From positions 4,273 to 28,272 of the forward strand of contig JAAEQG010000450.1 of NCBI GenBank assembly GCA_024231775.1: a stretch of 24,000 bases of DNA, in the 5' to 3' direction. Every line of letters begins with the position of its first letter. Position 1 is the first letter of the stretch. The notes beneath the pieces were generated by a model. The model had not been told where the DNA came from and made no database searches. It saw nothing but the letters and a program-made list of their open reading frames with translations. The DNA comes from a bacterium. GTDB taxonomy: Bacteria > Planctomycetota > Phycisphaerae > UBA1845. Shown piece by piece: positions 784 to 22,810 of the stretch. The position numbers were made by a program, and so were the translations under genes.

Positions 784-916
784 GAAGGCCTGTGCAGGAT
801 ACCAGGAGCGCGAGCCTAACCTCCCATCAGAAAAGGTGTTAGGCTAGCCATCCCACCGTGTAGTCAACGTGTACCCAACGCCGCTTGCCCGCGGCACAGC
901 CCAAGGGTCCCCGCGG

Positions 917-3606: not shown

Positions 3607-3633
3607 ACCCATGGGCGACAGCGAGGGCTGGGC

Positions 3634-6704
<3,071 letters not shown>

Positions 6705-6928
6705 ACCCGCGCCCGGGACCGTCCGAAGTCGTGCGGCCTCCCGGCAGAAGGTCTGATCCGATCAGCGCCGCGACCGCGAGGGAGCGGACGACGAGCAGCC
6801 CTCGCCGTTGTCGCCTGACTCAACCCGTGGATCCTCTGGGGTATCCTCCGGAGTGCGACGCAGGAGCGGAATGTAAAGCGAAGATTCGTAATCAGCGGCA
6901 AATAGGGAATCGACTTGCACGCAGAATC

Positions 6929-6937
6929 TGCTAAAAT
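6929..6937 (+). promoter_or_regulatory. Possible extended -10 promoter element (TGcTAAAAT) for the mur/fts cluster
   Basis: The sequence tgctaaaat lies 36 nt upstream of the murE ATG, inside the 268-bp gyrB-murE gap. TTGCAC at 6915..6920 is only 11 bp upstream, too close for a -35. GGAG RBS at 6961..6964. Confidence 0.25.
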
Positions 6938-6972
6938 GGAGGGGCCTCAAGGATGAGCGCGGAGCGATTCTA

Positions 6973-9908: not shown

Positions 9909-9914
9909 TCGAGC

Positions 9915-11057
9915 GTGCTGTATCACCTCTTCAGGTTGATGCTCGAGGGGCGGCACTACGCATACGAGAATCCTCTGTTCCGCGCGACATTGGCTGCACT
10001 GTTCTGCTTCCTGTTTGTGCTCATCCTCGGTCCCCGAGTGATTCGCCAGCTCGTCAAGTACAAAGTGGGCGATCATGCGGAGTTCGACCACGAATCTCTA
10101 AACGAGTTGATGCGCGACAAGCAGCGGATCCCCACCATGGGCGGGATCCTGATCATCGCAGCCATCATGCTGGGCACGCTGCTGTTCGCCGACTTCATGG
10201 TGTTCTACGTGCAATTGGGGATCGTCTGTCTGTTATGGCTGGGAGCACTGGGTGCGGTCGACGACTGGTTCAAGCTCACCGCCAAGAAGAGGACCGGGAG
10301 TCGGGACGGGCTGAAGAGCTACGAGAAGCTGTTGTTTCAGATGGGTCTGGCGGTGATCGTAGGCTACTTCGTTTACAGTGCGGGGCAGACCAACCACGCC
10401 TGGGTGGCCGGGGCGGATGCAGTGGAGTCCCGCGAAGCCTATCGTGTGCTCAGCGTACCCTTCTACAAGCACGGCTTCAGCTTGGGTACAGCCCCGTTCA
10501 TGCTCATCGCCGTACTGGTGATCACTGGGACCAGCAACGCCGTCAACTTCACCGACGGGATGGACGGATTGGCTTCCGGCTGCGTGGGCATCTGTGCGCT
10601 GGTGTTCATGATTCTGGCTTATGTAGTGGGGGACGAGACCGTAGCCCGCAAGCTGTTGATTCCACACGTTCCCCACAGTGGTGAGCTGGCGGTCATGTGC
10701 GGGGCAACCCTCGGAGCGTGCGCCGGCTTTCTCTGGTACAATTGTCATCCGGCGCAGGTGTTCATGGGAGATACGGGTTCTCTCCCTCTGGGGGGCGTGA
10801 TCGGATACATCGCCGTGGTCACCCGCCAGGAATTGATGCTGTTCATCGTCGGAGGGGTGTTTGTGATCGAAGCCGTGTCCGTCATGCTGCAGGTGTGGTA
10901 CTTCAAGACCACCGGCGGGCGGCGGATGTTCCGCTGCGCCCCACTGCACCATCACTATCACCTGAGCGGTTGGACGGAGACGCAGACGGTGACCCGGTTC
11001 TGGTTGCTGGGGGCGATGTTCGCGGTCTTTGCCCTCGCGACGATGAAGTTGCGCTAA
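9915..11057 (+). CDS. mraY: Phospho-N-acetylmuramoyl-pentapeptide transferase
   Basis: Polytopic membrane protein with NAVNFTDGMDGLA and MGDTGSLPLGG motifs and the PLHHHY segment. GTG start with AGGAG 9 nt upstream. Confidence 0.95.
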   Translation: MLYHLFRLMLEGRHYAYENPLFRATLAALFCFLFVLILGPRVIRQLVKYKVGDHAEFDHESLNELMRDKQRIPTMGGILIIAAIMLGTLLFADFMVFYVQLGIVCLLWLGALGAVDDWFKLTAKKRTGSRDGLKSYEKLLFQMGLAVIVGYFVYSAGQTNHAWVAGADAVESREAYRVLSVPFYKHGFSLGTAPFMLIAVLVITGTSNAVNFTDGMDGLASGCVGICALVFMILAYVVGDETVARKLLIPHVPHSGELAVMCGATLGACAGFLWYNCHPAQVFMGDTGSLPLGGVIGYIAVVTRQELMLFIVGGVFVIEAVSVMLQVWYFKTTGGRRMFRCAPLHHHYHLSGWTETQTVTRFWLLGAMFAVFALATMKLR

Positions 11058-11099
11058 CGCAGAGGCGTATGCCGTTTACATTGTGGTTCCGAAGGGCGC

Positions 11100-12362
11100 A
11101 TGGCGGATCGAGCGAGTGGGGGCTGGGTGATGGGCAAGAGCGACATCGCGGGGGAAGCGACCGCCAACGCCATCATGGTCGTAGCTGCTGCGCTGATGAT
11201 GATCGGGGTCGTGGCGGTGGCTTCTGCGAGCGGCGGAGTGGATCGTTCGTCCTCGGTCGAATGGTGGAGGACCGGCTTCGGTCGCCAGTTGATCTTCGTG
11301 GGGTTCGGCCTCGCCACGATGCTGATGTTCTCCTGGGTGGGTCCTCAGGCGTTTGCATGGCGCCACAGATCGTGGTGGCAGCCGTCCCTTCTGTTGGTGG
11401 TGTTGGCCGGCGCGTGCCTGAGTCTGGCGCTGATCCCGGGTATCGGGTTGGAGCGCAACGGCGCGAGGCGATGGTTAAGCATCGGAACGCCTGGTGTGGG
11501 GCCTGCGTTTCAGCCGTCGGAGATGGCCAAAGTGGCCTTGGTGGTCTTCTTGGCCGCTTTTGTCGGCGGGCGATCCAAGCTGGTGGGATCGGTGACCAAG
11601 CTCCTCTTGCCATCCGTTGCGGTCATCGCCGTGCTGACCGCGCTGGTTGGCGTGGAGGACTTCGGCACTGCGGCACTGCTCGGGCTGGTGGGGGGGGCGA
11701 TCCTGCTTGTGGGAGGCTGTCGCCTGATCCACCTCGTAGTGGTTGCGCTTCCGGGCATAGCTACCGGCGCCTACCTGGTCTACTTCGAACCCTACCGCAT
11801 GGAACGTTTGACCAGCTTCGCGGACATCTGGGCCGATCCACAAGGCAGCGGGTATCACGCCATCCAATCCCTGGCGACGATCGCCTCCGGAGGCTGGTTC
11901 GGGTCCGGCTTGGGCTCGGGGATTCAGAAGTACGGCTACCTGCCCGCCAGCCAGACCGACTTCATCTTCTCGGTCTGGTGCGAGGAGACCGGCGTCTTCG
12001 GTGGTTTGCTCATCGTTCTGCTGTTCGTCGCCTTCCTGCTCCTGGGACTGCGGGCCATGCGGCGAGCCCGCAGCTCGGAGGCACGCTTACTGGCGTTCGG
12101 CGTCACCCTGCTGATTTGCTTGCAGGCGGTGATAAACCTCGCGGTGGTCAGCGTGGTGGCTCCCACCAAGGGAATCGCCCTACCCTTCGTCTCCGCCGGA
12201 GGGTCTGGCGTGGTGTTCTTGGCTGCCCTGGTCGGTCTCCTGGCTGGAGTCGCCCGTACCGCGGCGGTCTCAGCCTCGACAACCACGGACCCCTCGCTCC
12301 AGCCCTCAAGCGGTGCCGCCGAGGGCGAGGCGGCGCTCTCCCCCGGAGGAGCGAGCGGATGA
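11100..12362 (+). CDS. ftsW: SEDS-family peptidoglycan polymerase / lipid II flippase-type protein FtsW
   Basis: Multi-TM protein with FQPSEMAKVALVVFLAAF and the C-terminal GIALPFVSAGGSGVV motif of FtsW/RodA/SpoVE. I call it ftsW from its dcw context (mraY upstream, murG downstream). An alternative in-frame ATG lies at 11130. Confidence 0.85.
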   Translation: MADRASGGWVMGKSDIAGEATANAIMVVAAALMMIGVVAVASASGGVDRSSSVEWWRTGFGRQLIFVGFGLATMLMFSWVGPQAFAWRHRSWWQPSLLLVVLAGACLSLALIPGIGLERNGARRWLSIGTPGVGPAFQPSEMAKVALVVFLAAFVGGRSKLVGSVTKLLLPSVAVIAVLTALVGVEDFGTAALLGLVGGAILLVGGCRLIHLVVVALPGIATGAYLVYFEPYRMERLTSFADIWADPQGSGYHAIQSLATIASGGWFGSGLGSGIQKYGYLPASQTDFIFSVWCEETGVFGGLLIVLLFVAFLLLGLRAMRRARSSEARLLAFGVTLLICLQAVINLAVVSVVAPTKGIALPFVSAGGSGVVFLAALVGLLAGVARTAAVSASTTTDPSLQPSSGAAEGEAALSPGGASG

Positions 12363-13537
12363 GCGCAGGTGCTGCCACCATTCTGGAGAGGCCCACCGAC
12401 TCGGTTGACGCTGCTAGCACGGTGGTCTTTGCCGGAGGCGGTACTGGCGGGCACGTCTTCCCCGCCCTGGCTGTTGCCGAAGCGGTACGCGAGCTGCGCT
12501 CCGACGTTGGTTTCGTGTTCTTCAGCACCAACCGGGCGTTTGACCGGTCCGTGCTCGAGCGCACCGATGGTGAGTGGATCGCCCAAAGCGTTCGACCGCT
12601 CAGGTCCGCACCCTGGACCTGGCCGCGGTTCTACCTGGATTGGCGACGTTCCTGTCATGATTGTCGGCGAGAGTTCTCGCGTCGGCGTCCCGCGGTCGTA
12701 GTCGGAACGGGAGGATTCGCCAGCGGACCGCCGGTGTGCGAAGCGGACCGGGGCGGTATCCCCACGATCCTGCTGAATCCGGACGCCGTCCCCGGACGAG
12801 CGAACCGGTTTCTGGCGCGAAGGGCCCGGCGGATATTCGTGCAGTGGCCCGAAACCCTCAAGGCCCTTCGCGACCATGACCACTGTGAGGTCACCGGATG
12901 CCCCATCCGAGCCCAGTTCCGCACCGCGGACCGGTCAGCAGGCCTGGAACACTTCGGGCTGGACCCCGCCCGGCGAACCCTGCTCGTAACCGGAGCCTCC
13001 CAGGGGGCGACTTCAATCAACCGGGCCATGGTCGCGATTCGCGAACTGCTGGCAGGCGCACCCGAATGGCAGATCCTCCACCTCACCGGCCAGGCGGATC
13101 TCGAGCCCACCCAGGCCGGATACGAGGAAGCGAACGTACCAGCGAAGACCCTGCCCTTCACCCACCGAATGGCGGATGCGCTGGTTGCAGCCGACCTGAT
13201 TGTCTCCCGCGCGGGGGCTTCGACCCTGGCAGAGATCACCGCCCTGGGCAAACCGGCGGTGCTCCTGCCCTATCCCTATCATCGAGACATGCACCAGCAA
13301 GCTAATGCGCGCGTACTGGTCAAAGCGGGGGCGGCGAGGATCGTGCACGACCGAATCGTGCCCGAGAAGACCGCAGCAGGATTACGCGAGGTGCTGCCCG
13401 GCTTGATGAGCGATGCGGACGCGTTAGCCCGCATGGCTGCCGCAGCCCGACGCATGGGCACCACGAACGCCTCCGGACACGTCGCCCAGCGGATCTGTGA
13501 ACTGATCCCGCCGCCCGCGAACTCGGGAGGGCGATGA
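12359..13537 (+). CDS. murG: Undecaprenyldiphospho-muramoylpentapeptide beta-N-acetylglucosaminyltransferase
   Basis: This is the C-terminal part of the artefactual 946-aa track ORF 10697..13537. From ATG 12359 (ATGA overlap with the ftsW stop) it reads MSAGAATILE...VVFAGGGTGGHVFPALAVAEA, the MurG G-loop. Later motifs: GGFASGP and SRAGASTLAEITALGKPAVLLPYP. Confidence 0.9.
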   Translation: MSAGAATILERPTDSVDAASTVVFAGGGTGGHVFPALAVAEAVRELRSDVGFVFFSTNRAFDRSVLERTDGEWIAQSVRPLRSAPWTWPRFYLDWRRSCHDCRREFSRRRPAVVVGTGGFASGPPVCEADRGGIPTILLNPDAVPGRANRFLARRARRIFVQWPETLKALRDHDHCEVTGCPIRAQFRTADRSAGLEHFGLDPARRTLLVTGASQGATSINRAMVAIRELLAGAPEWQILHLTGQADLEPTQAGYEEANVPAKTLPFTHRMADALVAADLIVSRAGASTLAEITALGKPAVLLPYPYHRDMHQQANARVLVKAGAARIVHDRIVPEKTAAGLREVLPGLMSDADALARMAAAARRMGTTNASGHVAQRICELIPPPANSGGR

Positions 13538-13688
13538 GATGAAGCGAAAGCGCCCACCCAACCGATATCATAAGGGTGAGCGAGATGGGTCCAGCGGTTT
13601 CCCCGGGCTTTTCTCATCCCCCAGGCTATCATTCAAAACGACCTCTGGCGACAATATGGTCGCTCGATAATCCCCTGGAGAGGAAGCG

Positions 13689-15119
13689 GTGTTCAACCCC
13701 GACAAACCGCCTGGCGCACCCCGAACCGACGCCGCGCCCGAACCGCGCGAACGTGTTCACCTGATCGGGATCGGCGGGTGCGGAATGTCCGCGGCAGCCA
13801 ACCTGCTGATGCGCCAAGGCGCGCGCGTCAGCGGGTCGGACGCCCGTGACTTCGAGGGGTTAGGCCGGCTGGTCGCCCAAGGCGCGATCGTACGAGTAGG
13901 TCACCACGCAGACCACCTACCCCCCAACGCGGACCGCGTAGTGGTCAGCGCCGCCATTCCCCAGTCCAACCCCGAGTGGGTCGCCGCCCGCCGCCGAAAC
14001 CTGCCCGTCCTGTCCTACCCGGAACTGCTGGGAGAGATGATGCGCCATCGGCGGGGGATCGCCGTTGCGGGCACCCACGGAAAAAGCACCACCACAGCCT
14101 TGCTCGCGCATCTGTTCACCTCCGCGGGCTACGACCCCACCTTCATCATGGGGGCCGCCGCCGACCAGTTGGGCGGAAGCTCAGGCGCAGGCCGGGGCGA
14201 ACACTTCATCGTCGAAGCTTGTGAATACGGTCGATCGTTTCTGGCCCTGGAGCCTGCGGTTGCGGGAATCCTGAACGTCGAGGCGGACCATCTGGACTGC
14301 TACCAGAATCTCGATGACATCCGCGCAGCCTTCGCGCAGTTTGCCGCCCAAGTTCAGCCGGGTGGTACGCTCATCACTCCCCACGGAGAGTTGGACCTCG
14401 GCGAGGAGGTTCTTGCTCGTGGTGTCGTGCATGAAACCTACGGTCTTCTCCCCGGGGCTAGCTGGCAAGCGGATAACCTCCAGGCGGAGTCCGGCTGCTG
14501 CGCGTTCGACGTCACCCACGATGGGCGGAAAGTGCTGTCAGCCCGCCTGGCCCTTCCGGGTGTCCACATGGTCCAGGATGCTCTGATGGCTGCGGCACTA
14601 GCCTGCCATGAGGGACTGGCCCCGGAGGCGATCGCCGCCGGTCTCGAGTCGTTCGCAGGAATCGAACGACGGATGTCCCGGCGCGGCACGGGCTGCGGGG
14701 TCACCGTCATCGACGACTATGCTCACCACCCGACGGAAATCGCCGCCACCCTGCAGGCTATCAATGATCGTTATCAACCGCGACGAACCTGGGTCGTCTT
14801 TCAGCCGCATCAGGCCTCGCGGACCCGGCGCTTGATGCACGAGTTCGCCTCCTCCTTCGCGGCGGCGGACGTGATCATCGTCGCAGACATCTACTGCGTC
14901 AGGGACACCGCCGAAGATCGGGCCTCCGTGCGGGCAGCGGACCTCGCGTCGCTGATCCACCGCAACGGAGGCGACGCCCGCTATGTCGGCGATTCAGACG
15001 AAGTCGCCCGCCACGTGGGCGAGAACCTGACCGAAGGAGACCTCGTCGTCACCATGGGAGCCGGTGACGTGTGGAAGATCGCCGATGCACTGGTTGAGCG
15101 AGTTCAAAGAGCGGGTTGA
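13689..15119 (+). CDS. murC: UDP-N-acetylmuramate--L-alanine ligase
   Basis: VHLIGIGGCGMSAAANLLMRQGARVSGSD, GIAVAGTHGKSTTTALL and DDYAHHPTEI. GTG start preceded by GGAGAGGAAG. Confidence 0.9.
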   Translation: MFNPDKPPGAPRTDAAPEPRERVHLIGIGGCGMSAAANLLMRQGARVSGSDARDFEGLGRLVAQGAIVRVGHHADHLPPNADRVVVSAAIPQSNPEWVAARRRNLPVLSYPELLGEMMRHRRGIAVAGTHGKSTTTALLAHLFTSAGYDPTFIMGAAADQLGGSSGAGRGEHFIVEACEYGRSFLALEPAVAGILNVEADHLDCYQNLDDIRAAFAQFAAQVQPGGTLITPHGELDLGEEVLARGVVHETYGLLPGASWQADNLQAESGCCAFDVTHDGRKVLSARLALPGVHMVQDALMAAALACHEGLAPEAIAAGLESFAGIERRMSRRGTGCGVTVIDDYAHHPTEIAATLQAINDRYQPRRTWVVFQPHQASRTRRLMHEFASSFAAADVIIVADIYCVRDTAEDRASVRAADLASLIHRNGGDARYVGDSDEVARHVGENLTEGDLVVTMGAGDVWKIADALVERVQRAG

Positions 15120-15966
15120 ACAGAACGTTCCACTGTCACCGATGACGTGGTTCAAGCTGGGCGGCTGCGCTCAGCATATGTACCGCCCCAACAGCGCCGA
15201 AGATCTCGCCCGCCTCATGCGCCGAGCCCACGAGGAGAACGTCTCCACCCGCGTCCTCGGCGGGGGCGCCAACGTACTCATCCAGGACGACGGCGTGAAC
15301 GGAGTCGTCATCCGCATGGACGACCCGGGGTTTCAGGGCATTGACTTCGAGGGCACCCGCGTGGTGGCTGCGGGCGGCGCCGACCTGATGCGGCTGGTCC
15401 TCGAATGTGTGCGCCGTAGCCTCAGTGGACTGGAGGGCCTGGCGGGTATCCCCGGTACGGTGGGCGGGGCGATCTGCATGAACGCCGGCGGCAAGTTCGG
15501 CTCGATCGGCGATTGCGTCCACGCCGTGCAACTGCTCAGCCTCGATGGAACCGTGCGCATGGTCTCGAAGAGCGAGCTGGATTTCGGGTATCGGTGCTCG
15601 GGAGTAGGCCGGCAGATCGTGCTCTCGGCTGAATTCGAACTGGTAAAGGAAGATTCCGGCGGAGTGCGGGCTCGCTACGACGAGGCTTGGGCCGCCAAGA
15701 AACGATCCCAGCCGCCGCTCAAAGCCCATTCCGCCGGTTGCGTGTTCAAGAATCCGCCGGGGCATTCCGCGGGGAAGCTCATCGACCAGGCGGGAATGAA
15801 GGGCGAAACCGTCGGCGGCGCCTCCGTGTCCGCCGAGCACGCCAACTTCATCATCGCCCACGAAGGAGCGACCTCCGCGGACGTGTTACGCCTCGTCGAG
15901 CGCATCCAAGAGAAGGTGCGCCGGAAGTTCGGCATCAACCTGGAGATGGAAATCGACGTCTGGTAG
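15085..15966 (+). CDS. murB: UDP-N-acetylenolpyruvoylglucosamine reductase
   Basis: VPLSPMTWFKLGGCAQHMYRPNSAEDL, VLGGGANVLIQDDG and SAGCVFKNPPGHSAGKLIDQAG. The start at ATG 15085 (or GTG 15064) overlaps the end of murC by 35-56 nt. Confidence 0.9.
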   Translation: MHWLSEFKERVEQNVPLSPMTWFKLGGCAQHMYRPNSAEDLARLMRRAHEENVSTRVLGGGANVLIQDDGVNGVVIRMDDPGFQGIDFEGTRVVAAGGADLMRLVLECVRRSLSGLEGLAGIPGTVGGAICMNAGGKFGSIGDCVHAVQLLSLDGTVRMVSKSELDFGYRCSGVGRQIVLSAEFELVKEDSGGVRARYDEAWAAKKRSQPPLKAHSAGCVFKNPPGHSAGKLIDQAGMKGETVGGASVSAEHANFIIAHEGATSADVLRLVERIQEKVRRKFGINLEMEIDVW

Positions 15967-15984
15967 AGCCAACCCCAAGACTCA

Positions 15985-16014
15985 TGTGGGACCGGCTTTC
16001 CAGCCGGTCAAGAC
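15985..16014. repeat. Hairpin repeat, copy A (tgtgggaccggctttccagccggtcaagac)
   Basis: Perfect 8-bp stem 15990..15997 / 16002..16009 with loop ttcc, 24 nt after the murB stop. Related copy at 22826..22855. A second 6-bp hairpin (gacagg/cctgtc, 16012..16032) follows directly. Confidence 0.8.
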
Positions 16015-16082
16015 AGGCCAAAAAGCCCTGTCCCGCAGTTTCCAGATGGGCTCTGGCAAGAGCAGCTTCAGTCCAAACGTAG

Positions 16083-16103
16083 CGTCCGGCGTCTCGCCGG
16101 ACG
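16083..16103. repeat. GC-rich hairpin (cgtccggc gtctc gccggacg)
   Basis: Perfect 8-bp inverted repeat with a 5-nt loop. No U-tract follows, so it is not a canonical intrinsic terminator. Confidence 0.7.
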
Positions 16104-16142
16104 TCCTCTGTTCTCGGCCCGTGTGGACGCAGGCCGCTACAC

Positions 16143-16160
16143 TTGGATTGAGAATGCTCA
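16143..16160. repeat. Left copy of an 18-bp direct repeat (ttggattgagaatgctca)
   Basis: 14/18 identical to 16430..16447 (atggattgaacatgctct). Shared cores are TGGATTGA and ATGCTC. The two copies bracket the repeat-rich core of the island. Confidence 0.6.
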
Positions 16161-16166
16161 AAATAC

Positions 16167-16209
16167 GTACCATGGCGCAGCAAAGTGTATGTACCATGGC
16201 GCAGCAAAG
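16167..16209. repeat. Tandem direct repeat, 2 copies, 24-bp period (gtaccatggcgcagcaaag)
   Basis: The 19-bp units at 16167..16185 and 16191..16209 are identical and separated by tgtat. Each unit contains the palindrome CCATGG. Confidence 0.9.
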
Positions 16210-16214
16210 CGTGG

Positions 16215-16256
16215 GATATCAGGATGGCTCCGACAGATATTAGGATGACCCCGACG
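16215..16256. repeat. Tandem direct repeat, 2 copies, 21-bp period (gatatcaggatggctccgaca / gatattaggatgaccccgacg)
   Basis: 17/21 identity between adjacent units. It directly abuts the 24-bp-period repeat. Confidence 0.75.
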
Positions 16257-16286
16257 TTTTAGCCCTGGAAGGGCGTCTGAATATAG

Positions 16287-16313
16287 CCCAGGGTGAGCGC
16301 AGCGAGCCCTGGG
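16287..16313. repeat. Hairpin cccaggg-N13-ccctggg
   Basis: Perfect 7-bp inverted repeat 16287..16293 / 16307..16313 with a 13-nt loop (tgagcgcagcgag). Confidence 0.7.
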
Positions 16314-16335
16314 TAACAAGGCCCCCCAAAGCAGA

Positions 16336-16350
16336 GCCCCCGGAGGGGGC
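16336..16350. repeat. Perfect GC palindrome gcccccggagggggc
   Basis: 6-bp G/C stem with the 3-nt centre gga. Confidence 0.7.
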
Positions 16351-16429
16351 GAAGGAAGAACTCGGCGCCTCCTGAAGCGATGAGGCATCTGCGGAAAACT
16401 GCTTTCATAATACCGGATATACGCTATGC

Positions 16430-16447
16430 ATGGATTGAACATGCTCT
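16430..16447. repeat. Right copy of the 18-bp direct repeat (atggattgaacatgctct)
   Basis: See 16143..16160. Confidence 0.6.
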
Positions 16448-16515
16448 GGCTAGTCGCCGGAAGAGACTCGAATCGACGCTATGATACCAGACCCAGGAGG
16501 ACTATGCCGACCAAC

Positions 16516-16540
16516 GAGCCGCGGACTTCAGTCCGCGCGG
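16516..16540. repeat. Hairpin repeat, ddl-upstream copy (gagccgcggacttcagtccgcgcgg)
   Basis: 7-bp stem 16520..16526 / 16531..16537 with loop ttca. 23/25 identical to 17674..17698; the two differences are a paired A-T to G-C change in the stem. Confidence 0.8.
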
Positions 16541-16642
16541 CCACTAGAACACCAGAAGCAACATGATCGGGAATCGGGCAATCGGCACAATTGAACTAGA
16601 TCTGGTATGACTCGGACCCAGGAGCGGGACGGAGAAAACGCG

Positions 16643-17656
16643 ATGCCTCGAACCGCAAATGCCCACAAGAACGCGAAGGTGCGCCGTCCGCCCTCCACCA
16701 AGACCCGAGGCTCCATGGCCCTGAATACTCTGGACATTACCGTGTTAGCCGGAGGACCCAGCGAAGAGCGCGCGGTGAGCCTGGACAGTGGCCGAGCGGT
16801 ATGCGCCGCACTGAAACGCCTGGGACACCGGGCGACCATGATGGACATCGTTCCCGAAGACCTGGCTGCCCTGGACTCGCCTTGCGACTGCGTGTTCGTC
16901 GCCCTGCACGGGACCTTCGGGGAGGATGGCCAGGTTCAGCGTCTTCTGGAAGGAAGGGGCATATGCTACTGCGGCGCCGGTCCCGCAGCCTCCGCCCTCT
17001 CGATGGACAAAGCCGCCGCCAAGGAACGCTTCACCGAGGCGGGCATCCCCACCCCGCGCTTCGAGGTGGTCACCGCCGAAACCCTGGACCGCGCCGTCGA
17101 CGCCTGGAAGGCGCCGATCGTCATCAAGCCGGTGCGTTCGGGGAGCAGCGTGGATACCTACATTGTGCATCCACCGAGTGGTATCACCGAGGAGCTGAGC
17201 ACTGTCATCGACCGACACGGGGACGCTCTGATCGAGGAGTTCATCGAAGGCCTCGAGCTGACCGTCGGCATCCTCGGCGATCGGGCATTGCCTCCTCTGG
17301 AGATCCGGCCCAAACGAGCGTTCTATGATTACCAAGCCAAGTACGTCGATGACGATACCGAATACATCTTCGATATCGATCTACCTCAGCAAGTGCTCGA
17401 GGACATCAGCCGACAAAGTCTCCGCGCCCACCGACTGCTGGAGGTTCGAGACTTCTGCCGCGTCGACTGGATGGTCGACCGGCACACCCGGAAACCGTAC
17501 CTCCTGGAGATCAACACCATCCCCGGGTTCACCAGTCATTCGCTACTACCCAAGGCGGCAGCCCGGGCGGGTATCTCTTTCGACGAGTTGTGCCAGCGAA
17601 TTGTCACTCTGACCATGCACCGGAGCGAACCTGGTATAGACCGCCGGGCGCCCTGA
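16643..17656 (+). CDS. ddl: D-alanine--D-alanine ligase
   Basis: ITVLAGGPSEERAVSLDSGRAVCAAL, ALHGTFGEDGQVQRLLE, and ATP-grasp segments (KPVRSGSSVDT, EINTIPGFTSHSL). The start is uncertain. ATG 16643 has GGAGA 7 nt upstream, the track ORF starts at ATG 16607, and the conserved core begins at ATG 16715 (MALNTLDITVLAGG). Confidence 0.9.
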   Translation: MPRTANAHKNAKVRRPPSTKTRGSMALNTLDITVLAGGPSEERAVSLDSGRAVCAALKRLGHRATMMDIVPEDLAALDSPCDCVFVALHGTFGEDGQVQRLLEGRGICYCGAGPAASALSMDKAAAKERFTEAGIPTPRFEVVTAETLDRAVDAWKAPIVIKPVRSGSSVDTYIVHPPSGITEELSTVIDRHGDALIEEFIEGLELTVGILGDRALPPLEIRPKRAFYDYQAKYVDDDTEYIFDIDLPQQVLEDISRQSLRAHRLLEVRDFCRVDWMVDRHTRKPYLLEINTIPGFTSHSLLPKAAARAGISFDELCQRIVTLTMHRSEPGIDRRAP

Positions 17657-17673
17657 CCGATCGAGAGTTCAAG

Positions 17674-17698
17674 GAGCCGCGGGCTTCAGCCCGCGCGG
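17674..17698. repeat. Hairpin repeat, ddl-downstream copy (gagccgcgggcttcagcccgcgcgg)
   Basis: 7-bp stem 17678..17684 / 17689..17695 with loop ttca, starting 18 nt after the ddl stop. It may act as a terminator or stabiliser, but no U-tract follows. Confidence 0.8.
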
Positions 17699-17800
17699 TG
17701 GAGCGAAGCGAGAATCGCCTTGAATGTTTGTTCAGTGGGCAGTCGGAAACCAACATCCGTATCAGGCTCGCCATACGGGCCGCAGTAGAGGGCAAGATCA

Positions 17801-18670
17801 TTGGCACGGGCGAAGCGAAAGAAAACATCCGGATCCTACTGGCCGCAGTGGTGGTCATCCAAGGATCAGGCAGCTAAGCGGGCTTCCCTGGTCATGGCCC
17901 TGCAAGTGCTCGCCGTCGCTGGGCTGGCCGTGGGAGCGACGTACGCCCTGGCCACCCTCGAAGCCCGGGTCCACGCCGCGCAACGTTTCGCCGACTCACC
18001 CGTCGTCGAGCTGGCGGACGTCCCCCCCGGATTAGAGGAGACCATCGCCGCGAAAGTGGCGCCGTTTGAACGCGCTCGGGGATACGACCCCGAGATTTGC
18101 CTGAAGATCGGGCGAGCCCTCGAGGCGGACCCCTGGGTTCGACGAGTGCGCAGCGTATCCCGGCTCAGCGATCTGCGTGTGGTCGTCGAGTGCGACTATC
18201 GCGAGCCGGCAGTGCTGATCCAAATCGGCAACATCTTCTACGTAGCGGATAACGAGGCGGTCCGGCTGCCCGGGACCTACGGATACGAACAGACCCTTCC
18301 GCTGATTCAGGGGGTGGGCAGCGAGCCGCCTGCCCCGGGCGAGCGGTGGAACGCCCCGGACCTGGACGCGGGAATGGCCCTGATCCATCTGATCTCCCGC
18401 GAGACCTTTGCCCACCAGATTACCGGTGTCCAGGTGCACAACTTCGGCGGACGCTTATCGCCGAGGGAATCACACCTGGTGTTAGCCACCGACCGGTCTG
18501 GAAGCCTGATCTACTGGGGATCGGCACCCGGGGCAGAGGTGGAGGAGAACTCTCCCGCTCAGAAGATGGCCATCCTGCGCGACAACTACGCCCGTCTTGG
18601 GCGGGTGGATGCGAACTGCGGGCCGATTGACATCTCTGCGTATCCCGACCGGTTTATCGTTCCACGATGA
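17801..18670 (+). CDS. ftsQ: FtsQ/DivIB-like cell division protein (bitopic, POTRA domain)
   Basis: Basic N-terminus (MARAKRKK), one TM helix (LVMALQVLAVAGLAVGATYALATL), then a POTRA-like segment: DPWVRRVRSVSRLSDLRVVVECDYREPAVLIQIGNIFYVADNEAVRLP. It sits in the canonical position after ddl. TTG start with GAGGG 8 nt upstream; alternative ATG at 17894. Confidence 0.7.
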   Translation: MARAKRKKTSGSYWPQWWSSKDQAAKRASLVMALQVLAVAGLAVGATYALATLEARVHAAQRFADSPVVELADVPPGLEETIAAKVAPFERARGYDPEICLKIGRALEADPWVRRVRSVSRLSDLRVVVECDYREPAVLIQIGNIFYVADNEAVRLPGTYGYEQTLPLIQGVGSEPPAPGERWNAPDLDAGMALIHLISRETFAHQITGVQVHNFGGRLSPRESHLVLATDRSGSLIYWGSAPGAEVEENSPAQKMAILRDNYARLGRVDANCGPIDISAYPDRFIVPR

Positions 18671-19774: not shown

Positions 19775-20395
19775 GTGATAAGCCTGCAAACTTACCTCAT
19801 GTGGCTGCGGGGCCTGGATACGCTAGCCGGTCTTCCCATTATCCTCATCGGTCTGGCGGTCATGCTCGGCGGATGGCGGATGGGCCGTGTCTGCGTGATC
19901 CTCTCCTGCGCGGCGATTGGCGCGGGCGTTGGCTGGCATGTGGCGCACGTGTCCAGCAGTCCGTGGCTGGCATTGGCTCTGGGTGGTGGCTTGGTCACTG
20001 GGGTGCTGGGGTTCCTGTTGCGCGCCTACGCGGCGCCGGTGCTCGGTGGTGCGATCGGGGCTGCGGTCGTGATGCAGCTCCTGATCCCGTTTCGCCTCGA
20101 TGGATGGCCCTGGTGGATCTCCTTCGTCTTAGCCTTTGCCTGCGCAGGGGCCTTGTGCATGACTAATCTCCGCCTGGTGGTAATCATCATCACCTCACTC
20201 GAAGGCGCGCTGCTCCTGGTGTCCGGGCTGGTTCCGATCATGACCATGTGGCCTGGGCTCCTACGCTTCTTCGAGAGCACCAACAGAGTGAGCTGGATAT
20301 TCTTCCCGTTCATGGTGCTGGTCCCGGCGATCGTGGGCTACTTCCTCCAAGTCGCCGATTCAAGGCGTCATCCTTCCGGATCAGCCAGGGCCTGA
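19775..20395 (+). CDS. Glycine-rich polytopic membrane protein, apparent paralog of the preceding gene
   Basis: About 6 hydrophobic helices. LPIILIGLAVMLGGWRMGRVCVILSCAAIGAGVG parallels the LP-x5-G...G-x-(K/R)-x-x-R...G-x3-G pattern of 18835..19665. GTG 19775 or ATG 19799 as start. Confidence 0.55.
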   Translation: MISLQTYLMWLRGLDTLAGLPIILIGLAVMLGGWRMGRVCVILSCAAIGAGVGWHVAHVSSSPWLALALGGGLVTGVLGFLLRAYAAPVLGGAIGAAVVMQLLIPFRLDGWPWWISFVLAFACAGALCMTNLRLVVIIITSLEGALLLVSGLVPIMTMWPGLLRFFESTNRVSWIFFPFMVLVPAIVGYFLQVADSRRHPSGSARA

Positions 20396-20448
20396 ACGGA
20401 ACAGCCCAGGCTCCCCTCAGTGCATGGCGAGGAGCAATGGGATAGGCT

Positions 20449-20988
20449 CTACTCAATGGTACTGAGCGACTCCATTATGCGCGTGCTCATGTTCTGATAA
20501 GCGATGATCCCCACCACCCCCAAGATGTCCTCATCCGAGAAACCGCCGCTTCTAAGTTCCTGAATATCGACAGGACTGCACGCATCCGGAGACCGAGTCA
20601 CCTTGACAGCCAGGTCTGCAATCAGTCTCTCACGAACGCTCAGCTCCGCTTTGGTATAGTCTTCCGCTACCTGTGTAGCCAGTTCCTTATTCTTCGCCGC
20701 TCGACCGAGGGCTTCAAGGTGGCTAGCCGTTCAGTGTACGCATCCAACAAAGGAGGATGTCACCAACGCAGCGACCTCCTTCTCCCGCGCGCTCAAGCCG
20801 GACGCATTGCGATACACCGCCGAGCATAGACTGTCTATGCACTTCGCAACCTCCGGGGACAGGCTCGTGATTCGCGTGAGGTCAGATACCTCCCCAGTCA
20901 ATGCATTGCGCGTCTCATTATATAGCTGCTTTACTTCTTCATTCGAAGTGTCATCCTCGTCGATCCCTATCCACGGTACCCAACCCAT
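20449..20988 (-). CDS. AhpD/carboxymuconolactone decarboxylase-family peroxidase-related protein with in-frame UGA (candidate selenocysteine at residue 86)
   Basis: Track ORF 20731..21000 ends ...SAREKEVAALVTSSFVGCVH at TGA 20733..20731. My hand translation in the same frame continues for 93 codons (TASHLEALGRAAKNKELATQVAEDYTKAELSVRERLIADLAVKVTRSPDACSPVDIQELRSGGFSDEDILGVVGIIAYQNMSTRIMESLSTIE) to TAG 20451..20449. The family motif C-x-x-C-x-x-x-H reads C-V-H-[TGA]-T-A-S-H here. ATG 20988 has GGAGA 5 nt upstream; the track start, TTG 21000, is less likely. Confidence 0.7.
20676..20725 (-). promoter_or_regulatory. SECIS-like stem-loop immediately 3' of the in-frame UGA
   Basis: In the mRNA, counting from the first nt after UGA: apical stem +19..+24 / +29..+35 (GCCCUC/GAG(C)GGC, one bulged C) closing a GGUC tetraloop at +25..+28. 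Lower helices CCUU/AAGG (+12..15 / +43..46) and UAGCC/GGCUA (+6..10 / +51..55). Folded by eye only. Confidence 0.4.
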
Positions 20989-21103
20989 ATCATTCTCCAA
21001 TCACGAAACTGTACGGTAACACATACTCTACGCGAGAATCCAGTATACCCCATCGACTCATGCTGAAGCTCGACCGTACCGCGGCTGGCCAGAAGCAGTG
21101 TAG

Positions 21104-21124
21104 CGCCACCCCTTGTGGGTGGCG
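21104..21124. other. GC-rich hairpin between the zinc-ribbon gene and the selenoprotein-candidate gene
   Basis: cgccaccc cttgt gggtggcg: a perfect 8-bp stem with a 5-nt loop, 114 nt downstream of the zinc-ribbon gene stop on the minus strand. No U-tract. Possible terminator or processing site. Confidence 0.3.
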
Positions 21125-21237
21125 AGAAGTCCATCAGAGACCAAAGCGCGAGTGCGGGCTCAGCCCCAGCCGCGCCGCGTGCGATCCGTCCAAGCCCCAA
21201 GGGGGTGATGGAAGGGTTCGCTCCCTCTCCGAAGAAC

Positions 21238-21648
21238 TTACGGTTCACCCGCCGTTCGGCTCGCCACACACTGTTCGCAGCGCGCGTGGCGCCGCCCGTC
21301 CGGCTCCACGCGCATGAAAGGCTGACCGCAATCCGGACAGTCCGCCGCCACCCCCGCCGCCGCTCTCCCACATTCCGGGCAGGGGACTCGCCCATGGGCA
21401 CGCGGCTCTCCCTCCTCGGACGCGCTCTCCGCGCGGTGGGTCATCATCAACCTGGCCCGCTCCCGCGGCGTCGCGCTAAAGACATGTCCGCACGCGCCGC
21501 AGATGAACATCTGCGCTGATTCGCGCGTATCTGGCATTCCCGCCAGAGGGGCATCCGCGCCCTGGACTAGGTGATAGGCGCCCACCGCCGCTGCCGCGAC
21601 GATCACCATTCCGAAGACGACCTGCCTGGCTCGGGATCCTTCGCTCAT
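21238..21648 (-). CDS. Membrane-anchored double zinc-ribbon protein, unknown function
   Basis: From ATG 21648: MSEGSRARQVVFGMVIVAAAAVGAYHLV (signal anchor), then four CxxC pairs: CGAC...CPEC and CPDC...CEQC. Third-codon positions are strongly G/C, consistent with real coding. The track ORF extends to 21774, which would overlap the upstream gene. Confidence 0.55.
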   Translation of the reverse strand: MSEGSRARQVVFGMVIVAAAAVGAYHLVQGADAPLAGMPDTRESAQMFICGACGHVFSATPRERARLMMTHRAESASEEGEPRAHGRVPCPECGRAAAGVAADCPDCGQPFMRVEPDGRRHARCEQCVASRTAGEP

Positions 21649-21731
21649 CTTCCTGACTACCGTACCCCTGGTGGCAGAGTACCACTGCCGCTTACCCGAC
21701 CCCGCGGTTCGCCCAACCCGCGGAACAGTCG

Positions 21732-22667
21732 TCAAGGAATACTCCACTCCATATCCTCGGCAAGAACCGTCCACTCCGACCCGGACATCCGTCGGGTGTC
21801 AGCCGCCACATTAGCAACGTGGCCGTCGAGAAACGCCAGATTATGCTGGGAGAACTGGCGATGAAAACCCATCTCCTGAATACCCCGGAAGACTGCGTAG
21901 TCGAACGGGTCCTCATCAATAGTAACGTATCGGGACGGGAAGCGTTGCAGGGCCATCGCCCAAATCCGCTGCATCTGGCGGCTACGGCAGGGCCACACCG
22001 TCGGCGGCCCAGAGGTGCAGGACTCGACCGGCTCGACCCCACATACTCCCAGGGTCTGCTCCGCCGTCCCGTCACCATCGTAATCGACGCCCTCTACCAG
22101 ACGGGTCTGATACCACCCGAAGGAGTTCATCTGATAGCTGGTCCCCACGTCGTCGTAGGCTGAGTACGTGTCATCGGCGCTGGCCACCCACCACCGCCAT
22201 TGCGTGGAAACAGTGTCGGACGGACACCTGAACACCGGCTGACCGGTGACCTCCTCGAGGTCCTTCGCTCCCGGACCGGTCTGGACCGGCGCCGCCACTT
22301 CGTTCTTGTTCATGTACACCGTCAGTGGACGACGGTTAGCCGGTATCTGCCGATAGCCGCCCAGGGCGGTCCTCCAAAACGGATTCTTCCCCAGCCATCC
22401 GCCGTAGCTCCACGAGCAATACCCACGCGGGCACCCTTCGTCAGTGGTCAGCACGACGATCGGGAACGCGTCAAACTCCGCCGCGTAGGTGAGCAACGCG
22501 GTATTGATCGACCGCATGTTTGTCTGGCACTTAACCTGCTTGGCCTGCTCGCGGGCCTTGCTGAGCGAGGGGAGTAGGAGCGAGACCAGAAGTCCGATGA
22601 TCGAAACAACCACCAGCAGCTCGACCAGAGTAAACCCCTGCGCGGATCGTGTTGAAGACCTCACCAC
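21732..22667 (-). CDS. Prepilin-type N-terminal cleavage/methylation domain protein (DUF1559-like pseudopilin family)
   Basis: SAQG|FTLVELLVVVSIIGLLVSLLLPSL is the class III signal / N-methylation motif. The C-terminal NLAFLDGHV resembles the DUF1559/H-X9-DG-type ending. GTG 22667 gives an 11-residue leader. The track start (22769) adds a 34-aa extension that runs through a hairpin repeat. Confidence 0.8.
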   Translation of the reverse strand: MVRSSTRSAQGFTLVELLVVVSIIGLLVSLLLPSLSKAREQAKQVKCQTNMRSINTALLTYAAEFDAFPIVVLTTDEGCPRGYCSWSYGGWLGKNPFWRTALGGYRQIPANRRPLTVYMNKNEVAAPVQTGPGAKDLEEVTGQPVFRCPSDTVSTQWRWWVASADDTYSAYDDVGTSYQMNSFGWYQTRLVEGVDYDGDGTAEQTLGVCGVEPVESCTSGPPTVWPCRSRQMQRIWAMALQRFPSRYVTIDEDPFDYAVFRGIQEMGFHRQFSQHNLAFLDGHVANVAADTRRMSGSEWTVLAEDMEWSIP

Positions 22668-22713
22668 CCGCTCGGCCCTGTGTACGCAAACAGGCCCCCA
22701 GGACCCGATGACT

Positions 22714-22734
22714 CCCCTCCTTCCTGGGGAGGGG
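22714..22734. repeat. G/C hairpin cccctcc ttcctgg ggagggg
   Basis: 7-bp perfect stem upstream of the pseudopilin-like gene. This is why the extended ORF reads PSPNPSPGRRG. Confidence 0.6.
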
Positions 22735-22810
22735 TTGGGGGAGGGTAGTTTCTCCGGGCGCTCACGCATATGGAGCTCTCTGCCATCCTGTCCTGGTATC
22801 AGCTCTGGAA

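What the first reader, a model, noticed from the sequence alone, without database searches (positions are those of the whole stretch)
20449..20988. In-frame TGA replaces the second Cys of the CxxC redox motif in an AhpD/CMD-family gene: candidate selenoprotein
Seen in sequence: the 89-aa track ORF stops at TGA 20733..20731, but the same frame stays open for 93 more codons to TAG 20451..20449. The joined 179-aa product is collinear with the peroxidase-related carboxymuconolactone decarboxylase/AhpD-like family, from SGLSAREKE through DYTKAELSVRERLIADLAVKVTRSP to GFSDEDILGVVGIIAYQN. Established knowledge: that family carries C-x-x-C-x-x-x-H, and Sec usually substitutes for a catalytic Cys. Here the motif reads C-V-H-TGA-T-A-S-H. 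Inference: UGA is decoded as selenocysteine. AhpD-like/CMD selenoproteins have been predicted in computational selenoproteome surveys, so the family is not new. This locus would still be annotated as a truncated gene or pseudogene by standard callers, and it implies the host has a Sec-decoding trait.
Basis: partly seen in the sequence, partly recalled or inferred. Interest (0 to 1): 0.72.

Follow-up and report, generated by a model that had tools for sequence, protein, structure and literature searches.

The report
AhpD-like selenoprotein gene with SECIS

Summary
Window 20988..20449 (- strand) is a 179-codon frame with one in-frame TGA (20733..20731, codon 86) inside C83-V-H-[TGA]-T-A-S-H90. 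The read-through product passes the curated cut-off of TIGR01926 (peroxidase-related enzyme, AhpD/CMD superfamily).

Four results support selenocysteine decoding:
- All 18 full-length orthologues found in public genomes carry TGA at this codon. Their record titles name Desulfobacterota/delta proteobacteria, Myxococcota, Anaerolineaceae, Phycisphaerae, Acidobacteriota and SAR324.
- The part after the TGA is better conserved than the part before it.
- In 77 more distant full-length homologues the column is Cys in 60.
- A hairpin, GCCCUC-GGUC-GAG(C/U)GGC, starts 18 nt after the UGA. It is virtually invariant in all 19 sequences, including synonymous sites. Codons 93-96 use a single codon everywhere, whereas none of 67 other conserved degenerate codons do.

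TGA ends 10 of 16 other genes in the window, so the genetic code is standard.

"AhpD-like protein, COG2128/TIGR01926, CxxU" is a listed bacterial selenoprotein family (Sargasso Sea 2005, GOS 2008, 2026 review). Sec-decoding Planctomycetes are also documented. This is therefore a new member of a known kind.

The host's selA/selB/selC/selD could not be checked. Low interest.

The parts
20449..20988 (-). Complete recoded coding sequence of the AhpD-like (TIGR01926) selenoprotein: 179 codons plus TAG stop, ATG start at 20988..20986
   Evidence: sequence and translation. TIGR01926 121.8 bits against a cut-off of 81.8, residues 6-177. PF02627. PDB 6k40 AhpD, E=3.7e-19 over residues 6-176; collinear 179-aa orthologues.
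20995..20998 (-). Shine-Dalgarno-like GGAG, 6 nt upstream of the ATG
   Evidence: Read directly. Function is inferred.
20731..20733 (-). In-frame UGA, codon 86, proposed selenocysteine codon; it takes the place of the second Cys of the CxxC motif
   Evidence: TGA in 19/19 orthologous sequences. The column is Cys in 60/77 distant homologues.
20696..20712 (-). SECIS core hairpin: 5' stem GCCCUC (20712..20707), apical loop GGUC (20706..20703), 3' stem GAG-C-GGC (20702..20696, with one bulged C). It begins 18 nt after the UGA and the loop begins 24 nt after it.
   Evidence: RNAalifold consensus, 6 pairs kept in 18-19 of 19 sequences; codons 93-96 (GCC CUC GGU CGA) are a single codon wherever the residue is kept (18-19 of 19), against 0 of 67 other conserved degenerate codons.: -8.0 kcal/mol in the window, about -8 to -11 kcal/mol in 18 of 19 sequences, Fisher p about 1e-6.
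20677..20728 (-). Extended stem-loop predicted for this window only (two lower helices around the core hairpin)
   Evidence: window MFE -17.4 kcal/mol. The lower helices are not conserved among orthologues, so they are weak evidence.
20740..20742 (-). Cys83 codon (TGC), first residue of the C-x-x-U redox pair
   Evidence: Cys in 19/19 orthologues and in 71/77 distant homologues.
20734..20736 (-). His85 codon (C-x-H-U); equivalent by spacing to His132 of M. tuberculosis AhpD
   Evidence: His in 18/19. Tyr in 63/77 Cys-type homologues. The relay residues are described in PMC3141380.
20719..20721 (-). His90 codon, the His of the CxxCxxxH motif
   Evidence: His in 19/19 and in 74/77 distant homologues.
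20776..20778 (-). Glu71 codon, 12 residues before Cys83; same spacing as Glu118-Cys130 of M. tuberculosis AhpD
   Evidence: Glu in 19/19. Spacing compared with PMC3141380. The functional role is inferred.
20449..20451 (-). True stop codon, TAG
   Evidence: Orthologues end at the same position...SLSTIE*.

Best explanation
The gene at 20988..20449 (- strand) encodes a 179-residue AhpD-like thiol/selenol oxidoreductase of the TIGR01926 'peroxidase-related enzyme' subfamily. Its codon 86 (UGA) is read as selenocysteine.

Decoding (inferred from the anatomy). While the ribosome approaches the UGA, the hairpin GCCCUC-GGUC-GAGCGGC 18 nt downstream acts as a bacterial SECIS. It would recruit SelB-GTP-Sec-tRNA(Sec), so that Sec is inserted instead of termination.

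Chemistry (inferred by homology). The product carries a C83-x-H85-U86-x-x-x-H90 centre with E71. This is the same five-residue relay and spacing as Glu118/Cys130/His132/Cys133/His137 of M. tuberculosis AhpD. Sec sits at the position of Cys133, the exposed residue that attacks the partner protein. The enzyme is therefore expected to cycle between a selenol/thiol and a selenenyl-sulfide form, passing electrons to a peroxiredoxin-type or other oxidised substrate.

What is shown and what is not. The sequence features, their conservation and the family membership are shown. Sec insertion, the physiological substrate and the reductant are inferred.

Origin. The gene is compositionally atypical for its neighbourhood and has no conserved neighbours, so it was probably acquired horizontally as a self-contained gene with its SECIS.
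For: Anatomy:
- One in-frame TGA within an otherwise open 179-codon frame.

Family:
- TIGR01926 121.8 bits against a cut-off of 81.8; PF02627 49.1 against 23.
- PDB AhpD 6k40 E=3.7e-19, aligning CVYC..H to CVH[U]..H.
- Foldseek top hits are all AhpD-like structures.

Recoding:
- TGA is at the identical codon in 18/18 full-length orthologues, 61-79% identical. Their record titles name Desulfobacterota/delta proteobacteria, Myxococcota, Anaerolineaceae, Phycisphaerae, Acidobacteriota and SAR324.
- The column is Cys in 60/77 distant homologues, and the closest Cys form reads GCVHCTASH.
- The post-TGA part has lower dN (0.08-0.23) than the pre-TGA part (0.16-0.44), with synonymous sites saturated.

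SECIS:
- The consensus hairpin has 6 pairs kept in 18-19 of 19 sequences.
- It is conserved at synonymous sites: 4 of 4 hairpin codons are mono-codon, against 0 of 67 elsewhere, p about 1e-6.
- The Cys homologues P0013 and L021 do not encode A-L-G-R, and L021 scores only 13.9 bits on the model.

Standard code:
- TGA terminates 10 of 16 other genes in the window.

Literature:
- AhpD-like CxxU selenoprotein family (PMC1088965; PMC2398784; PMC13188914).
- AhpD relay residues, and Cys133 as the attacking residue (PMC3141380; PMC6626918).
- Sec machinery in Planctomycetes (PMC4807772).
Against: - The host's Sec machinery was not seen. There is no tRNA in the window and no sel genes among the window's ORFs. 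The host genome is not in the searchable collections.
- The hairpin shows invariance, not compensatory covariation. In the single window sequence the fold is not significantly more stable than shuffles (z = -1.35). Rfam has no matching family.
- The gene's lower GC (0.546 against about 0.63) suggests horizontal acquisition, which leaves open that it landed in a host unable to decode it.
- No biochemical data exist for this subfamily's substrate.
Confidence: 0.9

Rival explanations
1. The Sec gene and SECIS are intact, but the present host lacks, or has lost, the Sec-insertion machinery. The gene would be a recent horizontal arrival, and translation would stop at UGA86 to give an inactive 85-residue fragment.
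For: The gene's GC is 0.546 and GC3 0.63, against 0.60-0.67 and about 0.73-0.81 in its neighbours. No neighbours are conserved across phyla. No sel genes or tRNA-Sec are in the 24-kb window. The Sec trait is patchy in Planctomycetes; genome P3 in PMC4807772 has none.
Against: The frame, all five relay residues and the SECIS core are intact in the window. Real decayed copies look different: L019 has lost its N-terminal half and has a mutated hairpin, and L020 has an internal deletion with a frameshift. Sec-decoding Planctomycetes exist, and a Phycisphaerae MAG carries the same gene (L006).
Confidence: 0.06
2. Ordinary pseudogene or truncated gene: the TGA is a nonsense mutation of a Cys codon, and the downstream frame is a relic.
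For: Standard gene callers stop at the TGA. Public catalogues hold many 85-aa fragments.
Against: The same TGA occurs in 18/18 orthologues whose record titles name six phylum-level groups. There are no other stops or frameshifts. The downstream half is more conserved than the upstream half. A conserved hairpin sits at the SECIS position.
Confidence: 0.02
3. Alternative genetic code: in this organism TGA encodes Trp or Gly (code 4 or 25), so residue 86 is not Sec.
For: Five database proteins of this clade (P0001-P0005) are recorded with W at this position.
Against: TGA is the stop codon of 10 of 16 other genes in the window, including dnaA, gyrB, murE, ftsW and murC. By their record titles the orthologues come from standard-code lineages. 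The W entries all come from short contigs of 842-1444 nt, where a caller can choose code 4. Trp at a CxxC catalytic position makes no chemical sense.
Confidence: 0.01
4. Sequencing or assembly error at 20731..20733 in what is really a TGC/TGT Cys codon.
For: None specific.
Against: TGA is invariant in 19 independent assemblies. The neighbouring Cys83 codon varies freely between TGT and TGC (11 against 8). A SECIS hairpin is present that the Cys homologues lack.
Confidence: 0.01

Closest known systems
AhpD-like selenoprotein family (COG2128 / TIGR01926, CxxU motif), first described from the Sargasso Sea metagenome (Zhang, Fomenko & Gladyshev 2005, PMC1088965); 'AhpD-like 1' in the GOS survey (PMC2398784); listed in the 2026 review PMC13188914
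   Same: Same HMM family: TIGR01926, passed above its cut-off. Same CxxU redox motif, with Sec as the second residue. A stem-loop with G in the apical loop lies just downstream of the UGA. Cys-containing homologues are widespread.
   Different: Nothing essential. This copy sits in a Planctomycetota-like chromosome beside the dnaA/dcw region. Its clade has C-x-H-U rather than the C-x-Y-C common among Cys homologues. I could not compare it directly with the published example, MCB9421940.1.
Mycobacterium tuberculosis AhpD (Rv2429), CxxC alkylhydroperoxidase/AhpC reductase (PDB 1knc, 1gu9)
   Same: The five-residue relay has identical spacing: Glu-(11)-Cys-x-His-Cys-x-x-x-His against E71-(11)-C83-V-H85-U86-T-A-S-H90. 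Sec occupies the position of Cys133, the exposed residue that attacks AhpC Cys61. Both have the all-helical AhpD/CMD fold.
   Different: The relationship is distant: Foldseek E 0.03-0.4, 12-16% identity. In the M. tuberculosis enzyme the active site lies in the C-terminal half of the chain (helices H8-H9). Here it is mid-chain, in a single CMD-type domain. No AhpC, lipoamide dehydrogenase or DlaT partner genes are adjacent here.
Solved TIGR01926-type 'uncharacterized peroxidase-related proteins' and D. radiodurans AhpD (PDB 6k40, 2prr, 2pfx, 2oyo, 3c1l)
   Same: Closest solved relatives by sequence (E 4e-19 to 2e-13, full length) and by fold. The CxxCxxxH motif is aligned.
   Different: All are Cys forms with C-x-Y-C, 23-28% identity.
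Escherichia coli fdhF SECIS (the archetypal bacterial SECIS)
   Same: A hairpin inside the coding sequence immediately 3' of the UGA, with a small apical loop carrying G-U. From memory, the fdhF loop also reads GGUC with essential G23/U24. This was not tested here.
   Different: The loop here lies 24 nt after the UGA, about two codons further than in fdhF. The bulge is on the 3' strand. SelB binding is untested.

Membership tests
TIGR01926 peroxidase-related enzyme (AhpD/CMD superfamily, COG2128) | Full-length match to the family HMM above the curated cut-off | tested here: met
   121.8 bits against a cut-off of 81.8, residues 6-177 on profile positions 2-173 of 178, with Cys written at codon 86. 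PF02627 49.1 bits against 23.
TIGR01926 peroxidase-related enzyme (AhpD/CMD superfamily, COG2128) | C-x-x-C-x-x-x-H redox motif with an upstream Glu (the AhpD proton relay) | tested here: met
   E71, C83, H85, [UGA]86 and H90 have the same spacing as Glu118/Cys130/His132/Cys133/His137. The second Cys is replaced by the UGA codon. These columns are conserved in 18-19 of 19 orthologues.
TIGR01926 peroxidase-related enzyme (AhpD/CMD superfamily, COG2128) | All-helical AhpD-like fold | tested here: met
   sequence match to solved AhpD-like chains, E down to 3.7e-19 over the whole length; the AF2 model of orthologue P0001 is all-helical and its top 46 Foldseek PDB hits are AhpD/CMD-type structures. 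The model is of low confidence (pLDDT 66, TM about 0.55).
TIGR01926 peroxidase-related enzyme (AhpD/CMD superfamily, COG2128) | Peroxidase or peroxiredoxin-reductase activity | not testable with these tools
   Needs biochemistry. No partner genes are adjacent.
Bacterial selenoprotein gene (SelB/SECIS-dependent UGA recoding) | In-frame UGA aligned with a catalytic Cys in homologues | tested here: met
   Cys in 60, Ser in 8 and Gly in 5 of 77 full-length homologues. The closest Cys form, P0013, reads GCVHCTASH.
Bacterial selenoprotein gene (SelB/SECIS-dependent UGA recoding) | UGA and the downstream reading frame conserved in orthologues under purifying selection | tested here: met
   TGA in 19/19; downstream aa identity 68-85%, dN 0.08-0.23, dS saturated.
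Bacterial selenoprotein gene (SelB/SECIS-dependent UGA recoding) | SECIS stem-loop shortly 3' of the UGA, with a small apical loop containing G | tested here: met
   a 6-bp hairpin with a GGUC loop that starts 24 nt after the UGA, invariant at synonymous sites (p about 1e-6). Conservation is shown, not compensatory covariation. The 16-37 nt spacing rule of bSECISearch is recalled from memory.
Bacterial selenoprotein gene (SelB/SECIS-dependent UGA recoding) | Host encodes selA, selB, selD and tRNA-Sec (selC) | not testable with these tools
   None are in the 24-kb window. The host genome was not found in genome contigs (best match 79%) or in the gene index.
Bacterial selenoprotein gene (SelB/SECIS-dependent UGA recoding) | Selenium actually incorporated at the UGA position | not testable with these tools
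   Requires 75Se labelling or mass spectrometry.
Reassigned-UGA genetic code (table 4 / 25) | TGA not used as a stop codon by the organism's genes | tested here: not met
   10 of 16 other genes in the window end in TGA.
Pseudogene | Loss of constraint: further stops or frameshifts, decay of motifs, no conservation past the lesion | tested here: not met
   the frame is intact and conserved. Contrast the truly decayed copies L019 and L020.

The most novel reading that the evidence does not exclude
The Sec-containing clade (C-x-H-U) carries a 17-nt SECIS core that is virtually identical in 19 sequences. This holds even though synonymous sites elsewhere in the gene are saturated. The genomes span six phylum-level groups. 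The window's copy is compositionally foreign to its Planctomycetota-like chromosome. The most novel reading left open is that this is one self-contained selenoprotein gene lineage spreading between phyla by horizontal transfer, here caught after a fairly recent arrival. It could then serve as a marker for transfer among Sec-decoding bacteria. A less likely variant is that it has landed in a host that cannot decode it.
Probability: 0.4. Interest if true: 0.3.

Novelty: new member of a known kind. Interest (0 to 1): 0.17.

Why it matters
The practical value is annotation. Standard gene callers split or truncate this gene. Public protein catalogues contain its clade as 85-residue stubs, as C-terminal stubs, or with Trp at the Sec site.

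The locus also predicts that the host, probably a Planctomycetota bacterium, decodes selenocysteine. That can be checked on the full genome.

It does not open a new question. The AhpD-like CxxU selenoprotein family, bacterial SECIS elements and Sec use in Planctomycetes are all documented. A modest scientific point is that the Sec clade reproduces the full Glu/Cys/His/Cys/His relay of M. tuberculosis AhpD, with Sec at the attacking position. That makes it a clean candidate for testing what Sec adds to AhpD chemistry.

Tried and rejected
- Rfam, at gathering threshold on the whole window and at E<=10 on 20400..21300, found no SECIS-type family. Only noise hits (Xist, U6) appeared. I know of no general bacterial SECIS model in Rfam, so this says little.
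- tRNA scans of the window and of 22 related loci found no tRNA-Sec, and in fact no tRNA at all.
- An exact-protein look-up of the window's DnaN found nothing on record. The best genome contigs match to the gene was 79%. The host genome could therefore not be located or searched for selABCD.
- A lower SECIS helix that I specified on the alignment is not conserved: 26% of cells paired and no covariation. My columns may also have been slightly out of register with the window's own fold. Per-sequence folds show heterogeneous lower pairings. Only the 6-bp core is claimed.
- The single-sequence fold of 20660..20740 is not significantly better than shuffles (z = -1.35). The evidence for the hairpin is comparative.
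- All-against-all BLAST of flanking ORFs found gene order conserved only among closely related loci, chiefly the Desulfuromonadales-type group L012-L015. No operon partner is conserved across phyla.
- Promoter and terminator scans of 20300..21400 found nothing.
- A covariance model of the element found no second copy in the window.
- The AF2 model had only pLDDT 66 from a 5-sequence alignment with Trp at the Sec site. It is used only as weak fold support.
- The window's own translation could not be given to the alignment or structure tools because of the internal stop.
- Rejected explanations: pseudogene, alternative code and sequencing error (see rivals).

Full report
**1. The observation.**

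On the minus strand the frame starting at ATG 20988..20986 runs for 85 sense codons, meets TGA at 20733..20731, and continues for 93 more codons to TAG 20451..20449. The mechanical ORF list shows the 89-aa ORF 21000..20731 from an upstream TTG, and a 50-aa remnant ORF in the downstream part. A GGAG lies 6 nt before the ATG, and all orthologues start at the equivalent Met. The coordinates 20449..20988 and "residue 86" are correct.

**2. What the protein is.**

With Cys written at codon 86:
- The product scores 121.8 bits on NCBIfam TIGR01926, "peroxidase-related enzyme" (curated cut-off 81.8), over residues 6-177.
- It scores 49.1 bits on Pfam PF02627, CMD (cut-off 23).
- Against solved structures the best sequence match is D. 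radiodurans AhpD 6k40 (E=3.7e-19, residues 6-176). There C-V-Y-C-A-V-S-H aligns with C-V-H-[U]-T-A-S-H. Next come the structural-genomics "uncharacterized peroxidase-related proteins" 2pfx, 2prr, 3c1l and 2oyo.
- An AlphaFold model of the 75%-identical orthologue P0001 was of low confidence (pLDDT 66). It is all-helical, and its best Foldseek PDB hits are these same AhpD-like structures.

**3. Is the TGA a stop, an error, or a sense codon?**

*Orthologues.* A scan of one genome per species found 18 full-length orthologous loci, 61-79% identical. Their record titles name Desulfobacula, Desulfobacteraceae, Desulfobulbaceae, Desulfocapsaceae, Desulfuromonadales and Malonomonas rubra DSM 5091. They also name Myxococcota, Anaerolineaceae, Phycisphaerae, Acidobacteriota and SAR324. 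Every one has TGA at exactly this codon and an open, collinear frame to the same C-terminus...SLSTIE*. The adjacent codons vary freely: Cys83 is TGT 11 and TGC 8, and His85 is CAC 9 and CAT 9. Codon 86 is TGA in 19 of 19.

*Selection.* Between the window and its relatives the part after the TGA is more conserved (68-85% aa identity, dN 0.08-0.23) than the part before it (51-74%, dN 0.16-0.44). Synonymous sites are saturated. The downstream half is therefore translated.

*Distant homologues.* An exhaustive HMMER search with P0001 showed a characteristic pattern. Close relatives appear only as 85-aa N-terminal fragments ending ...GCVH, or as C-terminal fragments. Then there is a jump to full-length homologues of 25-49% identity. 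In 77 such full-length single-domain homologues the TGA column is Cys in 60, Ser in 8 and Gly in 5. Cys83 is kept in 71 and His90 in 74. The closest Cys form, P0013 (49%), reads GCVHCTASH.

*Database entries with Trp.* Five database proteins of the clade carry Trp at the site (P0001-P0005). They come from contigs of 842-1444 nt. I read them as TGA translated under code 4 by the gene caller.

*Genetic code of the window.* TGA ends 10 of 16 other genes, including dnaA, gyrB, murE, ftsW, murG, murC and ddl. The code is standard.

*What decay looks like.* Two related loci show it. L019 has lost the N-terminal half and has a mutated hairpin. L020 has an internal deletion that fuses MPWNPWI out of frame to ...ASHTEALGR. 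The window's copy shows none of this.

**4. The SECIS element.**

Eighteen nucleotides after the UGA lies GCCCUC-GGUC-GAG-C-GGC (window 20712..20696). It has six pairs, one bulged base and a GGUC loop that starts 24 nt after the UGA.

- RNAalifold recovers this hairpin as the consensus structure of the 19 aligned sequences, with 18-19 of 19 sequences keeping each pair.
- There is no compensatory covariation, because the element does not vary at all.
- That invariance is the evidence. Codons 93-96 (Ala-Leu-Gly-Arg, 4- to 6-fold degenerate) are GCC CUC GGU CGA in every sequence that keeps the residue.
- None of the 67 other conserved degenerate codons in the gene is mono-codon; they use 2-6 codons each (Fisher p about 1e-6).
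- The core folds at -8.0 kcal/mol in the window and about -8 to -11 kcal/mol in 18 of 19 sequences.
- The Cys-type homologues do not encode A-L-G-R at this place: TEKLEK in P0013 and SPVLRQ in L021. L021 scores only 13.9 bits on a covariance model of the element.
- The wider stem predicted for the window alone (20728..20677, -17.4 kcal/mol) is not conserved. The single-sequence fold is not significantly better than shuffles.
- From memory, not tested here: the position and the G-containing small loop fit the bacterial SECIS consensus of Zhang and Gladyshev, and the E. coli fdhF loop also reads GGUC.

**5. Mechanism.**

*Shown.* A conserved UGA sits at a catalytic-Cys position, a conserved hairpin lies just 3' of it, and the downstream coding is under selection.

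*Inferred.* SelB-GTP-Sec-tRNA(Sec) binds the hairpin and inserts Sec at codon 86.

*Active site.* E71-(11 residues)-C83-V-H85-U86-T-A-S-H90 reproduces the spacing of the M. tuberculosis AhpD relay Glu118, Cys130, His132, Cys133, His137 (PMC3141380). Sec replaces Cys133, the exposed residue that attacks Cys61 of AhpC, while Cys130 is partly buried (PMC6626918). The expected chemistry is a selenol nucleophile that forms a mixed selenenyl-sulfide with an oxidised partner and is resolved by Cys83.

*Substrate.* The partner is unknown. No peroxiredoxin or lipoamide-system genes are adjacent, and no neighbour is conserved across phyla.

*A clade feature.* The Sec clade has His at C-x-H-U, as M. tuberculosis AhpD does. 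By contrast, 63 of 77 Cys homologues have Tyr there.

**6. Context.**

- The window carries dnaA, dnaN and gyrB, then a dcw cluster (murE, murF, mraY, ftsW, murG, murC, murB, ddl and an ftsQ-like gene) with no ftsA/ftsZ.
- After that come two membrane proteins, the AhpD-like gene (convergent), a zinc-ribbon protein, a DUF1559 protein with an N-terminal methylation motif, and a cation-efflux transporter.
- DUF1559 pseudopilins and the missing ftsZ point to Planctomycetota. This is inference from general knowledge.
- The AhpD-like gene has GC 0.546 and GC3 0.63, against 0.60-0.67 and about 0.73-0.81 for the neighbours. This is consistent with horizontal acquisition.
- No sel gene or tRNA is in the window.
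- The host genome could not be found in the accessible collections. The host's Sec-decoding trait therefore remains an inference.
- Full Sec-insertion gene sets have been reported in several Planctomycetes, including Gemmata obscuriglobus and Isosphaera pallida (PMC4807772). A Phycisphaerae MAG carries the same TGA-containing gene (L006).

**7. Comparison with what is known.**

- The "AhpD-like protein" (COG2128) with a CxxU motif was reported as a new selenoprotein family from the Sargasso Sea, with 27 sequences (PMC1088965).
- It was the fourth most abundant prokaryotic selenoprotein family in the GOS data: 299 sequences against 902 Cys homologues (PMC2398784).
- It occurs in sequenced genomes (PMC1794560).
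- It is listed as "AhpD-like protein, TIGR01926, CxxU" in a 2026 review (PMC13188914) and is browsable in BSepDB (PMC13326102).

The gene here meets the sequence-level defining features of that family.

**8. Verdict.**

The gene is a new member of a well-catalogued selenoprotein family, not a new kind. Interest is low, about 0.17.

The residual uncertainty of about 10% is almost entirely whether this particular host decodes the UGA. The most novel reading still open is inter-phylum horizontal spread of one Sec-gene lineage with a frozen SECIS.

Noticed in passing
window 16261..16313 (-): Rfam Acido-Lenti-1 sRNA match just above threshold (38.8 bits against a gathering score of 37, E=1e-5), in the spacer between murB and ddl.
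   Followed up: no
window 869..18670 (+): dnaA, dnaN and gyrB are followed directly by a dcw cluster (murE, murF, mraY, ftsW, murG, murC, murB, ddl, ftsQ-like) with no ftsA/ftsZ after it. Together with the DUF1559/N_methyl protein at 21732..22769 (-), this suggests a Planctomycetota host. Most gene names come from reading the translations; only dnaA, ftsW, DUF1559 and the CDF transporter were checked by Pfam.
   Followed up: partly
window 20449..20988 compared with its flanks: The selenoprotein gene has GC 0.546 and GC3 0.63, while 15 of 16 neighbouring genes have GC 0.60-0.67 and GC3 0.73-0.81. This is compositionally foreign and suggests horizontal acquisition.
   Followed up: partly
proteins P0001-P0012, P0014-P0023 (public catalogues): Public protein collections mis-represent this clade. 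It appears as 85-aa N-terminal stubs ending GCVH, as C-terminal stubs starting after the SECIS region, or as full-length entries with Trp at the Sec position, apparently TGA translated under code 4 on short contigs. One C-terminal stub, P0010, is fused to a PF04986 transposase-like region.
   Followed up: partly
L019:9900-10280 and L020:9970-10280: Two related loci hold decayed copies. L019 lacks the N-terminal half and its hairpin is mutated (GAG to GCG). L020 has an internal deletion joining MPWNPWI out of frame to ..ASHTEALGR, which removes the TGA. They are useful as negative controls for what a pseudogene of this family looks like.
   Followed up: partly
codon 85 (window 20734..20736) across homologues: The Sec clade and its nearest Cys form have C-x-His-(U/C), like His132 of M. 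tuberculosis AhpD. By contrast, 63 of 77 more distant Cys homologues have C-x-Tyr-C, like P. aeruginosa PA0269. This may be a co-adaptation of the proton relay with Sec.
   Followed up: no
window 21238..21774 (-) and 21732..22769 (-): The zinc-ribbon ORF and the DUF1559 ORF overlap by 43 nt as listed. The start of the downstream ORF is probably later than listed. The 249-nt spacer 20989..21237 upstream of the selenoprotein gene has no sigma-70-like promoter match.
   Followed up: no
Foldseek hits of model md40399fbce84: Among the AhpD-like structural neighbours is Bmp8, a thiol-dependent debrominase (6ohi/6ohj). This is a reminder that this fold supports chemistry other than peroxide reduction.
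   Followed up: no
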